Part shown: in pieces, positions 18,001-21,000 of the stretch
Layout: every line of letters begins with the position of its first letter
Position numbering within the stretch: the first letter of the stretch is position 1
Made by a program: the position numbers
NCBI RefSeq assembly: GCF_018977255.1
Contig: NW_024704748.1
Coordinates: 17,856,001-17,920,000 of the forward strand
Direction of reading: 5' to 3'
DNA: 64,000 nucleotides
DNA from: Callorhinchus milii
Taxonomy: Eukaryota

Positions 18001-21000
18001 TTAATCCACATAAGACAGAGAGTTAACTTTGGGCAGCAATTTATAACCATGGATGACTTGCTCTTAATAAGGGCTGTTGGGTTAGGCAGCAAGGAATGCT
18101 CTGCATTGTACAAACAAGAGCTGATAAGCAATCACATAAAGGGAGAGCAGTCATTGGGTTATAAACCATCTGCTGCTGCTGCTATTTCGGTCCTTATGTA
18201 TCACGTTTACATTTCAACGGTGTTGATGGGACCTGACAAATATGGTAAGCTCACTCGGAATCTTGGGAATTGTTAAACCAGTGTTTTGAGAACATTATAC
18301 GTAGAACTTTTTTAAGTTTATATGAGCTGAGTGCATTTATTCAGATCTTTTCTGTGTGTTTCTTTAACTCTGCAGTGGGTAATATCTTTAACTCAATAAT
18401 CTCAGCTGGTATTTTTAGCCCTGATGTAACGCCACAGTGAGTTTCTGTATCCAAGTAGACATTAATTGGATCATCAGGTTTCATCTTTAGCAGGAGAACA
18501 TGGGAGTGCAGGAGGGAGCAGACAGACTGGAGCAAGTAAGTGCTCAAATAAGGCACAATGTCTTTGCTTCAGGTACTATTATGATTTGCTGTATAATTTT
18601 TCAGTTGATGAATAGGTTACGTATAAGATACAAATTGTAGCTTAGCTAATATGGACGTTATGAATGTGATTCGGACGAGAGCAACTCGTCATCCACCGTG
18701 TAAGCCTCTTAGAGTAAATATGGACTTATATGTTTGACTGGAGAGATCTGAGAATTAATGTCTTAAGGTGCACATGTGCAGAAACTGAAAAGAGACCAGA
18801 AAACAAATGTTCCTTGAATTAAATTAGTTATGAATCAACAATGTGGTACTGAGCCAAATACGAACCCAATTGAATTTGATAGATTGAGTGAGATCGGGTC
18901 ACAACTCTGGGTCTTGCTGGGGTTGGTAAAGGCTGTGTTCTTACGTGAGTCTATACTTAATTAAATAACACGTTGTGAACAATGCCAAGGGAAACGTTTA
19001 AAACATTGAAAATATTAGTGCTGACATAAAAGCCAGTGTTGATGTGTGTGTGTGTGTGTGTGTTTATGGATCTGAGAATGAAAATTAAATTAAAAATCAA
19101 AATTTTGAAAATATGTGAGGTGCAAACTATGATGTGTTATCACTGATCATAGTGAACGCATCACATTTTTTGCTACAACATTAGCTTTCATTTTGATACT
19201 AGTACTAATACTAATAACAAATTTTACACTGAGCATTAATTTAGTGTTTTATACAATGCTGACTTATATTCTTTAGAGCAGCCATTATATTCATTTAAAG
19301 CATTTGCCAATCTTTTGCACCACTGTTGGTGTTATAAAATAATAATAATAATCCTTGCATTTAATATAGTACCTTTCATGTTGGGAGGACATCTTGGAGC
19401 ACTTCACAGGATTTACTGTAAAGTGGAGTGATTGTGTATTTTGTATGCAAAAGCAGCAGCTAACATTTGCTTCGTAATCTCCCATGAAGTGATTGAGCAA
19501 TTTTATCCGGTGTAATATTGGCCTGGACACTTCTCTTTTCAAATAGTGTGATGGGATCTTTAACATTCATCGGAACTCAGTTTAACATCTCAACGGAGGG
19601 ATGGTACAATGATGCAGCACACACCCATCAGAGTGTCAACCTAGACTTCTGAGTTCAATCTGTTCAATGCAACAGTAGAATGATCATTCAAAGCACTGGA
19701 AAGCCTCATTGTATGGTTAGACTCTGAAATAGTGTGCCTTCAGGAGGGAGCAAACATTTCATCAGATTTTTCTTGCAAAGCTGCTTGTTCTGCTTAACCT
19801 GCAGAAGACCTGTCGAGCATGAATGTGATTTTATTAGATCATGATAGATCTTTTAATCTCAATCCTGCCCTTTTTCCATATCTTGCTATAGATCAGCGGA
19901 GAGCTTTACATTGAAAAGGTTGTCTCTACATTTTCTTTCTCCGATGTATATATTTTTTGAAACAATATTTTGTTGTTTTCCTCTTCAACTGTGCCTTCAA
20001 TCACCTCTCCTCCCTTTTCAACTCGGTATTAAACTTCACTGCTTGTTAAGAGTTTAGATGTTACCTTCGAGAAGTGTGCTACATAGAGGCATATTGTTTT
20101 ATTTTTCTACTTTTACCTTGCACCTTTCCTCACTGCACCCCTAGCTGAGAGGGACCTGCTCCCAATATGCTTTAGGCAGAGAAACTAGGGTGTGTGTGAG
20201 CGCTGGCTGGGATAACTTGTCCTACAATTTCACCTTCTATGTGGGGGAATCACTTCTCTTTCTGCTCAATGTCTTCTTGGTCAACACAGATCAGTCAAGG
20301 GTGGCCAATTTTAGACAAAGTATAGAAGTCAAGGAAAATCTAGCTTGTATATCATTTATAGAACTGACCAAGGTTAGTGTGGTTAGAATATTGATTCTTG
20401 GTATTAATGTGAAGTTTAAAGTCTAATATTCCTATTAAAAATAAACAAGATGGAAGTTGTCTAACCTTTGACTTGCATCAATGCAGGATGGAGTATTTTG
20501 TTCCCTATGAGTCTGCTCATGAATAAGAATTAAGTGGCCTGGGAGGCTTGTGAAAATATTCGTGCCTAATAGAATTTACAACAGATGAGGAAATAGCAGA
20601 GAATACATTTCATTTAATACAAATTGATAAAACCTTGTAGGATCATCCTGATTAATCTCACAATGGCTTTCTAATATATTTAGGGTATGCCATTGCAATT
20701 CTACATGCAGAGAAATGAATCCTGTTATCACTAGAGGTCAAGTTACGTGGTGCATATGGGCAAGCTGGCCATCCAATTTAAACATAATACTATGTTTCAA
20801 TCCATTGCTAACAACATTACCTCTGCTACACAAATGCTAAGAAACAATTTCATTCAAAAAATATTATAACAATCAACCAACATAGTGTTTTTCAAAGGAA
20901 TAGCGTCTTTTGAGTTTGACATGATAATGGTAAAACTGCTCGAGTTTCATTTGGTTTATATCATTCTGATCCTTTCCAAGGCAATGCCTTGAAGCATATC

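What the first reader, a model, noticed from the sequence alone, without database searches (positions are those of the whole stretch)
18488..18541. Hidden in-frame exon 8.6 kb upstream of exon 2: candidate alternative N-terminus MGVQEGADRLEQ
Seen: tcatctttag CAG GAG AAC ATG GGA GTG CAG GAG GGA GCA GAC AGA CTG GAG CAA|gtaagt. The ATG has a strong Kozak context and an upstream in-frame stop, and the consensus donor is in phase 0, giving [20 protein letters not shown]. The upstream TAG-CAG tandem acceptor would also give frame-preserving 45- or 42-nt cassette exons. From memory (unverified), some fish ank3 models begin [20 protein letters not shown], the same 12-residue length with M,V,E,A,L aligned, suggesting an old and little-studied isoform. 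It lacks the Lys/Arg-rich stretch of the familiar ankyrin-G N-termini and sits close to the palmitoylated Cys, so membrane targeting could differ. It is too short for the ORF track.
Basis: partly seen in the sequence, partly recalled or inferred. Interest (0 to 1): 0.7.

Follow-up and report, generated by a model that had tools for sequence, protein, structure and literature searches.

The report
Known alternative first exon of ankyrin-G
The short reading frame is a real alternative first coding exon of the elephant-shark ankyrin-G gene, but it is already in a public gene model and corresponds to a mouse exon described in 2015, so it is ordinary.

Summary
The sequence is as described. ATG 18500 through CAA 18535 gives 12 codons (MGVQEGADRLEQ), followed by a GTAAGT donor in phase 0. 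An in-frame TAG lies at 18488-18490. Exon 2 starts at 27178, 8,642 b downstream.

The window is Callorhinchus milii ank3: its exons are 100% identical to XP_007895306.1.

The exon is real and not hidden. RefSeq model XP_007895305.1 (C. milii ankyrin-3 X7, stored as P0244) begins with exactly these 12 residues followed by exon 2. Shark and ray models begin MAVQEETNLLEQ and MAVEEKADLLEQ. The same 12-residue MAVE-type N-terminus heads 116 of 117 further models from teleosts, amphibians, reptiles, birds and mammals.

It fits mouse Ank3 exon 1d: a 36-bp coding part that ends ..FPEE, expressed only in heart and skeletal muscle (PMC4449188).

The cassette-exon idea has no support: 0 of 395 models show it. 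Expression and tissue in C. milii, and any effect of the acidic N-terminus on membrane targeting, were not tested.

Verdict: confirmed, correctly interpreted, already known. Interest is low.

The parts
18403..18418 (+). CAGCTG E-box directly followed by GTATTTTTAG (MEF2-like / A+T-rich TATA-like core), 82-97 nt upstream of the ATG. This is a lead for a muscle-type promoter or leader element, not a shown function.
   Evidence: it is the only E-box + TAWWWWTAR pair within 20 nt in the 64-kb window on either strand, against 0.43 expected per window in 100 block shuffles. The motif definitions are recalled, and the test was made after seeing the site. No orthologous DNA was available to test conservation.
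18488..18490 (+). In-frame TAG that closes the frame upstream of the ATG. It is also the AG of an acceptor-like ..tcatctttag.
18491..18499 (+). Last 9 bases of the 5' leader, with Kozak context (A at -3). The true 5' end of the exon (TSS) is unknown.
   Evidence: Mouse exon 1d has about 322 b of leader (358 bp exon, 36 bp CDS; PMC4449188 Table 2).
18500..18535 (+). Coding part of the alternative first coding exon of ank3 (orthologue of mouse exon 1d): 12 codons, MGVQEGADRLEQ.
   Evidence: It is identical to residues 1-12 of P0244 (XP_007895305.1) and is found only here in six frames. It belongs to a class of 28 distinct 12-residue peptides.
18536..18541 (+). 5' splice site GTAAGT, phase 0.
18536..27177 (+). 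Intron of 8,642 b between the alternative first exon and exon 2. It ends in ..ttttttctatcttccaatag.
   Evidence: The junction is implied by P0244.
27178..27279 (+). ank3 exon 2 (ANK repeat 1, 34 codons). It holds the Cys in ..DINICNQ that corresponds to the palmitoylated Cys70 of mammalian ankyrin-G.
   Evidence: 34 of 34 identical to C. milii ankyrin-3. Cys70 comes from the review PMC9356056 (passages).

Best explanation
Window 18500-18535 is the coding part of one of several alternative first coding exons of the Callorhinchus milii ankyrin-G gene (ank3). It is the orthologue of mouse Ank3 exon 1d.

Proposed mechanism: transcripts that start at a promoter of their own just upstream carry this exon and splice its GTAAGT donor, in phase 0, to the acceptor of exon 2 at 27178. 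The protein then starts with a 12-residue acidic peptide (net charge -2) in place of the basic 39-residue MAHAAS-type N-terminus. Everything from ANK repeat 1 onward is unchanged.

Shown here:
- the sequence features;
- the exact match to a public gene model of the same species;
- the conservation of length, start, phase and residues across jawed vertebrates.

Inferred:
- that the exon is transcribed in C. milii from its own promoter;
- that, as in mouse, use is mainly in heart and skeletal muscle;
- that its main role is promoter choice (tissue-specific expression) rather than a new protein activity.
For: 1. Gene identity. ANK-repeat exons from 27178 to about 63300 match C. milii ankyrin-3 XP_007895306.1 at 100% within exon bounds (exon list).

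2. Public model. P0244, XP_007895305.1 'ankyrin-3 isoform X7 [Callorhinchus milii]' (2041 aa), starts [24 protein letters not shown]. This peptide occurs in the window only at 18500 (+).

3. Orthologues among the 79 named members of ten chondrichthyan clusters. Cetorhinus XP_078422022.1 starts MAVQEETNLLEQ, and Narcine XP_069756813.1 starts MAVEEKADLLEQ. Both are followed by TDTNASYL.

4. Wider distribution. A search with the first 40 residues of Albula P0081 listed 120 proteins, 117 of them new. Of these, 116 start with a 12-residue MAVE-type peptide directly before exon 2, and the remaining one carries it behind 32 extra residues. They come from teleosts, frog, newt, turtles, crocodile, lizard, snake, birds, marsupials and placentals.

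5. Conservation. Against 27 other distinct class peptides, the window residue is shared at M1 in 27/27, V3 27/27, E5 25/27, G6 19/27, E11 16/27 and Q12 15/27. Identity is 4-8 of 12.

6. Local similarity. The site ranks first of 127,930 six-frame 12-mers against the Etheostoma, Narcine and Cetorhinus N-termini.

7. Mouse. Exon 1d has a 36-bp CDS and is the second-nearest first exon to exon 2. Its junction primer reads ..TTC CCA GAA GAA/tct gat, that is ..FPEE|SD, which matches class columns 9-11. It was detected in heart and skeletal muscle only (PMC4449188: Table 2, S1 Table, text).

8. Upstream region. It is CpG-poor (o/e 0.19) and holds the window's only E-box + MEF2-like pair, 82-97 nt upstream of the ATG.
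Against: - No transcript data for C. milii could be examined. P0244 is a 'PREDICTED' model, seen only in an older copy (EukProt source).
- Among the 15 of 17 cluster members that the tool lists, the current NCBI isoforms X1-X7, and the separately stored X9, all start MAHAAS. Whether the current release keeps the model (X8 was not seen) is undetermined.
- Residues 2 (G) and 9 (R) of the window peptide are shared by 0 of 27 other class peptides.
- Similarity to tetrapod peptides alone is not outstanding: rank 4 against Chelonia and a tie at the top against Suricata.
- The mouse exon 1d peptide itself was not retrieved. The equation rests on its CDS length, its position and its last four codons.
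- The muscle inference is a transfer from one mouse study. The E-box/MEF2-like pair is a post hoc match to recalled motifs.
Confidence: 0.9

Rival explanations
1. Chance: a short open frame that happens to start with a good ATG and end at a consensus donor, with no function.
For: Such short features are cheap. Without the Kozak requirement there are 5 in the 27 kb upstream, against 2.3 expected. With it there are 2, against 0.2 expected.
Against: The peptide is identical to the start of a public model of the same species. It ranks first of 127,930 windows against independent shark, ray and teleost N-termini. The 12-residue class is found in 122 of 395 stored ankyrin-3 models.
Confidence: 0.02
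2. Internal cassette exon: the TAG/CAG tandem acceptor at 18490/18493 is used, and 45 or 42 nt are inserted in frame between another coding first exon and exon 2.
For: Both lengths are multiples of three and open (QENMGVQEGADRLEQ). A short pyrimidine-rich stretch precedes the AG. All coding first exons seen join exon 2 in phase 0.
Against: 0 of 395 named models carry the class peptide behind a MAHAAS-, MSEE- or MASS-type exon. The single longer form (Anableps P0327) is an upstream in-frame extension. The mouse study lists no junction into exon 1d among common or rare junctions (S1 and S2 Tables). Protein models cannot exclude rare transcripts.
Confidence: 0.05
3. Same N-terminus, but the coding exon is not the first exon: a non-coding leader exon further upstream splices into the acceptor at 18490/18493.
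For: The acceptor-like ..tcatctttag|CAG lies 10 nt before the ATG. Nothing in the data fixes the transcription start.
Against: In mouse, exon 1d is a first exon of 358 bp with about 322 b of leader, supported by an EST (PMC4449188 Table 2). The E-box/A+T-rich pair 82-97 nt upstream fits a nearby start, but weakly.
Confidence: 0.12
4. Conserved relic: the sequence is orthologous to exon 1d but is no longer expressed in C. milii, and the public model was projected from other species' proteins.
For: P0244 is a predicted model seen only in an older copy. G2 and R9 are unique to C. milii within the class.
Against: The ATG, Kozak context, 36-nt length, open frame and a full consensus donor are all intact. 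An unused 36-nt exon would not be expected to keep all of them over the time since the chimaera-shark split (inference).
Confidence: 0.04

Closest known systems
Mouse Ank3 exon 1d (Yamankurt, Wu, McCarthy and Cunha 2015, PLoS One, PMC4449188)
   Same: It is an alternative first exon of Ank3 with a 36-bp coding part (12 codons) and a phase-0 junction to exon 2, and it lies among the first exons nearest to exon 2. Its last codons ..F P E E fit columns 9-11 of the class to which the window peptide belongs.
   Different: In mouse it lies about 23.3 kb from exon 2, with another first exon (1e) between; here the distance is 8.6 kb. A crude scan for a peptide ending like the mouse 1e exon found none between 18536 and 27177. 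The C. milii peptide has G2, Q4, R9 and L10. Tissue use is measured in mouse and unknown here.
RefSeq model XP_007895305.1, ankyrin-3 isoform X7 [Callorhinchus milii] (stored as P0244)
   Same: Residues 1-12 equal the translation of 18500-18535, and residues 13-60 equal exon 2 onward of the other C. milii isoforms.
   Different: None at the N-terminus. It is a computed model, seen only in an older copy. Its status in the current annotation release was not established.
MAHAAS-type (38-41 residues) and MSEE-type (21-23 residues) ankyrin-G N-termini: mouse exons 1c and 1b in the 2015 numbering, called 1b and 1e in the psychiatric-genetics literature
   Same: They are alternative first coding exons of the same gene, joined in phase 0 to the same exon 2.
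   Different: They are long and Lys/Arg-rich: +8 for the C. milii 39-mer against -2 here. They were not found in this window. They are brain or broadly expressed according to the papers.
MASS-type N-termini (13-18 residues; for example C. milii A0A4W3KIL4, and Narcine, Cetorhinus, Hypanus, cyprinids)
   Same: It is another short, non-basic alternative N-terminus of ank3 that ends in Q before exon 2.
   Different: The peptide and length differ, and its exon is not in this window. It may correspond to mouse exon 1a, which ends ..AGCAG/gt. That is an inference, not tested.

Membership tests
Vertebrate ankyrin-G gene (ANK3/ank3) | Run of 99/198-nt ANK-repeat exons whose products match ankyrin-3 of a named species. 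| tested here: met
   exon 2 is 34/34 identical, and exons at 39451-39552, 53305-53403 and 62944-63042 are 100% identical to C. milii XP_007895306.1; only the C. milii entries are 100% identical over exon 2.
Ank3 exon 1d class (12-residue MAVE-type N-terminus) | Lies upstream of exon 2 on the same strand. The coding part is exactly 36 nt from the ATG. | tested here: met
   Mouse CDS of 36 bp: PMC4449188 Table 2. All 28 distinct class peptides are 12 residues long.
Ank3 exon 1d class (12-residue MAVE-type N-terminus) | GT donor in phase 0, so that the peptide abuts the first residue of exon 2. | tested here: met
   GTAAGT at 18536. P0244 reads ..[11 protein letters not shown].
Ank3 exon 1d class (12-residue MAVE-type N-terminus) | Peptide similar to the class members. 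| tested here: met
   Identity is 4-8 of 12. M1 and V3 are shared by 27/27, E5 by 25/27 and G6 by 19/27. The site ranks first of 127,930 against Narcine, Cetorhinus and Etheostoma, but fourth against Chelonia.
Ank3 exon 1d class (12-residue MAVE-type N-terminus) | Joined to exon 2 in a transcript of this species. | tested here: inconclusive
   A predicted RefSeq model has the junction. No RNA data can be read with these tools.
Ank3 exon 1d class (12-residue MAVE-type N-terminus) | Is a first exon with its own transcription start. | not testable with these tools
   There is only a motif lead at 18403-18418 and low CpG content. Mouse 1d is a first exon.
Ank3 exon 1d class (12-residue MAVE-type N-terminus) | [quoted passage not shown] | not testable with these tools
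   Reported for mouse only (PMC4449188; abstract and results passages).
In-frame cassette exon | The peptide is found inside a protein, behind another coding first exon. | tested here: not met
   0 of 395 named models. There is no such junction in the mouse S1 and S2 Tables.

The most novel reading that the evidence does not exclude
The 12-residue acidic N-terminus has kept its length and its M-x-V-E-E start in every class of jawed vertebrate sampled. On this reading it is more than a by-product of promoter choice. Replacing the basic N-terminal stretch and moving the palmitoylated Cys from residue about 70 to 44 would change how, or where, ankyrin-G docks on membranes in muscle. The promoter next to it would be an ancient E-box/MEF2-driven muscle promoter. 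No functional study of this N-terminus appeared in the searched library: 0 papers hold 'MAVEEG', and 1 paper holds both 'exon 1d' and 'ankyrin-G'.
Probability: 0.15. Interest if true: 0.45.

Novelty: already known. Interest (0 to 1): 0.1.

Why it matters
The result matters little as a discovery. The exon is in a public model of the same species, the same N-terminus is annotated across vertebrates, and the mouse exon has been measured.

What the check adds is modest. It shows that the exon 1d-type N-terminus goes back at least to the common ancestor of cartilaginous and bony vertebrates. It also shows that this N-terminus is acidic where the studied ones are basic. Finally, the literature reachable here holds no work on what it does. 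A group working on ankyrin-G in heart or muscle could use the conservation as a reason to compare N-terminal isoforms.

Tried and rejected
**Search attempts**
It was re-sent with 7 codons of intron read-through.
- The 12-codon exon is too short for every protein-search tool, so it was compared locally instead.
- Short-query tblastn of teleost 12-mers against the window was dominated by 4-5-residue chance matches and did not pick the site. It was replaced by full-length ungapped scoring.

**Other first exons in the window**
- MAHAAS-type, MSEE-type and MASS-type exons were not found.
- No peptide ending like mouse exon 1e before a GT was found, and no good match to the Hypanus 9-residue N-terminus was found.
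- The second strict ATG-donor candidate (4072-4089, MDAISN) matches no N-terminus seen and is taken as chance.

**Checks that came back empty**
- Repeat origin of the region: 18000-19000 is unique in the window.
- Rfam: 0 matches in the whole window.
- ORFs of at least 110 aa: nothing beyond read-through of ANK exons and low-complexity frames.

**Left open**
- A second cluster look-up, meant to see whether the current NCBI release keeps the model, listed the same 15 of 17 members.
Conservation of the promoter and of the splice sites at DNA level therefore stayed unchecked.
- Rueckert et al. 2013 (human exons 1a, 1b, 1e, 1f, 1s) was seen only as cited in a review. Whether human '1f' equals mouse '1d' is not established.
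Full report
**1. The observation**

- An acceptor-like ..tcatctttag ends at 18490. Its TAG (18488-18490) is in frame with the ATG.
- The ATG at 18500 has A at -3 and G at +4.
- Twelve codons (MGVQEGADRLEQ) run to 18535 and are followed by GTAAGT, so the donor is in phase 0.
- Exon 2 is 27178-27279, 34 codons beginning TDSNASYL, behind a long pyrimidine tract. 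The intron is 8,642 b.
- The window has no N.
- The 45-nt and 42-nt alternatives from the TAG/CAG acceptor are open and in frame.

**2. Is it more than chance?**

On start and splice features alone, only weakly. A Kozak ATG with an open frame of at least 4 codons ending at GTAAGT in phase 0 occurs twice in the 27,177 b upstream of exon 2. That compares with 0.2 expected in 200 shuffles. Without the Kozak condition the counts are 5 found and 2.3 expected.

The independent test is similarity to N-termini of ankyrin-3 proteins of other species. I scored all 127,930 twelve-residue windows of the six frames without gaps. The window at 18500 gave these results:

| Compared N-terminus | Score at 18500 | Rank | Competing score |
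|---|---|---|---|
| Etheostoma | 29 | 1 | 22 (next best) |
| Narcine | 36 | 1 | 23 (next best) |
| Cetorhinus | 30 | 1 | 21 (next best) |
| Gymnothorax | 21 | joint 1 | 21 (tied) |
| Suricata | 25 | joint 1 | 25 (tied) |
| Albula | 20 | 7 | 23 (top score) |
| Chelonia | 22 | 4 | 29 (top score) |

On the summed score against three teleosts it is first, with 70 against a next best of 52. The region 18000-19000 is unique in the window.

**3. What the window is**

ANK-repeat exons run on the + strand from 27178 to about 63300. Within exon bounds they are 100% identical to Callorhinchus milii ankyrin-3 XP_007895306.1. In the exon-2 search only the C. milii entries were 100% identical over exon 2. 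That search found 1,099 proteins at E <= 0.001 and listed 120. I used the 91 named ones and left out the 29 unnamed ones. I take the window for C. milii ank3, not for human sequence.

The search with the window's exon joined to exon 2 was left out. The 12-codon exon is below the minimum length of every protein-search tool and was compared locally instead.

**4. The decisive result**

A search with the ANK-repeat part of a C. milii protein (8,000 candidates scored, 120 listed) gave the chondrichthyan clusters. Listing the members of ten of them gave 79 named members beyond the ten cluster representatives.
- P0244, XP_007895305.1 'PREDICTED: ankyrin-3 isoform X7 [Callorhinchus milii]' (2041 aa), begins [24 protein letters not shown].
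- That peptide occurs in the window only at 18500 (+). P0244 continues exactly as the other isoforms do from exon 2.
- In the same set, Cetorhinus maximus XP_078422022.1 begins MAVQEETNLLEQ|TDTNASYL, and Narcine bancroftii XP_069756813.1 begins MAVEEKADLLEQ|TDTNASYL.

So the exon is not hidden. It is annotated in this species and in a shark and a ray.

One caveat applies. P0244 was seen only in an older copy of RefSeq. Among the 15 of 17 cluster members that the tool lists, the current NCBI isoforms X1-X7 start MAHAAS, as does X9, which is stored separately. X8 was not seen. The length of P0244 (2041 aa) would fit between X7 (2059) and X9 (1918), but that is only an inference.

**5. Distribution**

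A search with the first 40 residues of the Albula protein P0081 found 1,262 proteins at E <= 0.001 and listed 120, of which 117 were new and all named. Of the 117, 116 begin with a 12-residue MAVE-type peptide directly before exon 2. One (Anableps P0327) carries it behind 32 further residues.

The species are:
- teleosts (eels, salmonids, carp, flatfish, cichlids and others);
- a frog and a newt;
- turtles, a crocodile, a lizard and a snake;
- many birds;
- marsupials and placentals.

Over everything stored:
- 403 named proteins are held, and 395 have exon 2 near the start.
- 122 of these carry the 12-residue class, as 28 distinct peptides.
- The sample is enriched, so 122 of 395 is not a frequency.
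- Against the 27 other peptides, the window's residue is shared at M1 in 27/27, V3 27/27, E5 25/27, G6 19/27, A7 11/27, L10 10/27, E11 16/27 and Q12 15/27.
- G2 and R9 are shared by none.
- Identity is 4-8 of 12.

**6. Relation to the literature**

Yamankurt et al. 2015 (PMC4449188) describe five first exons of mouse Ank3 within about 409 kb of exon 2. I read the abstract, passages, section 16 part 1 with Table 2, and the S1 and S2 Tables.
- Exon 1d is 358 bp with a 36-bp coding part.
- It lies 1,942 b upstream of exon 1e, which lies 20,966 b upstream of exon 2.
- It was detected in heart and skeletal muscle but not in brain, kidney, cerebellum or lung.
- The 1d/2 junction primer ends ..C TTC CCA GAA GAA/tct gat, that is ..F P E E|S D. 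This fits columns 9-11 of the class (F in 19/27, P in 8/27, E in 16/27).

On the 12-codon length, the phase, the position near exon 2 and these residues, I equate the class with mouse exon 1d. The full mouse peptide was not retrieved.

A review (PMC9356056, passages) names five human first exons (1a, 1b, 1e, 1f, 1s) and Cys70 as the validated palmitoylation site. An earlier review (PMC3492013, passages) says the significance of the 5' exons is not understood. In the searched library, 0 papers hold 'MAVEEG' and 1 paper holds both 'exon 1d' and 'ankyrin-G'. 'Little studied' is therefore fair. Subscription papers are not covered.

**7. How it most likely works**

The exon is one of several alternative first coding exons, each with its own promoter, all joining exon 2 in phase 0. 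Use of this one gives ankyrin-G a 12-residue acidic start (net charge -2) instead of the 39-residue basic start (+8). The exon-2 Cys then sits at residue 44 instead of 71.

The features, the public model and the conservation are shown. Transcription in C. milii, the own start site and muscle-biased use are inferred.

One lead concerns the promoter. The only CAGCTG + TAWWWWTAR pair within 20 nt in the whole window lies at 18403-18418, 82-97 nt before the ATG, against 0.43 expected per window. The region is CpG-poor (o/e 0.19). The motifs are recalled, the test was made after seeing the site, and no orthologous DNA could be fetched.

**8. Rivals**

- Chance is excluded by sections 2 and 4.
- A frame-preserving cassette has no support. 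0 of 395 models show it, and the mouse tables list no junction into exon 1d.
- A non-coding leader exon spliced to the acceptor at 18490/18493 cannot be excluded without 5'-end data.
- A conserved but unused relic is unlikely, given an intact ATG, frame and consensus donor.

**9. Verdict**

The feature is already known: it is annotated in the same species and across vertebrates, and the mouse orthologue is published. Interest is low. The open point is whether the conserved acidic N-terminus does anything beyond marking a muscle promoter.

**10. What stayed unchecked**

- RNA evidence in C. milii.
- DNA-level conservation of the promoter and the splice sites.
- Cyclostome counterparts.
- The status of the model in the current annotation release.
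- The identity of human '1f'.

Noticed in passing
window 18403-18418 (+): CAGCTG E-box abutting GTATTTTTAG (MEF2-like / TATA-like), 82-97 nt upstream of the ATG. It is the only such pair within 20 nt in the window, against 0.43 expected. It fits the muscle-restricted use of mouse exon 1d but is a post hoc match to recalled motifs.
   Followed up: partly
not in the window; protein P0248 (C. milii A0A4W3KIL4) and relatives: A second short alternative N-terminus of ank3 (17 residues in C. milii, starting MASSPSGG..). Relatives of 13-18 residues occur in Narcine, Cetorhinus, Hypanus, cyprinids, Electrophorus and perhaps birds. Its exon is not in this window. It may correspond to mouse exon 1a.
   Followed up: partly
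window 1-27177: The MAHAAS-type (39 aa) and MSEE-type first coding exons of ank3 are not in the 27 kb upstream of exon 2. The exon at 18500 is therefore the only recognised first coding exon in the window. No counterpart of mouse exon 1e was found by a crude peptide-end scan.
   Followed up: partly
window 4072-4089 (+): A second Kozak ATG + open frame + GTAAGT in phase 0 (6 codons, MDAISN). It resembles none of the N-termini seen and is taken as chance.
   Followed up: partly
window 3385-3680, 21848-22159, 28754-29028: Three copies of a dispersed repeat of about 300 b (87-90% alike), upstream of exon 2 and in the intron downstream of it. The long chance ORFs at 3407-3799 (-) and 28769-29110 (-) lie on it.
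   Followed up: no
window 21450-21699 and 41110-41359: A 250-b pair in inverted orientation, 98% identical, about 19.4 kb apart in different introns. It looks like a young interspersed element.
   Followed up: no
protein P0327 (Anableps anableps): This model carries the class peptide behind 32 extra residues from an upstream in-frame ATG. In C. milii the TAG at 18488 closes that frame.
   Followed up: no
window 1-64000: No Rfam family reaches its gathering score anywhere in the window.
   Followed up: yes
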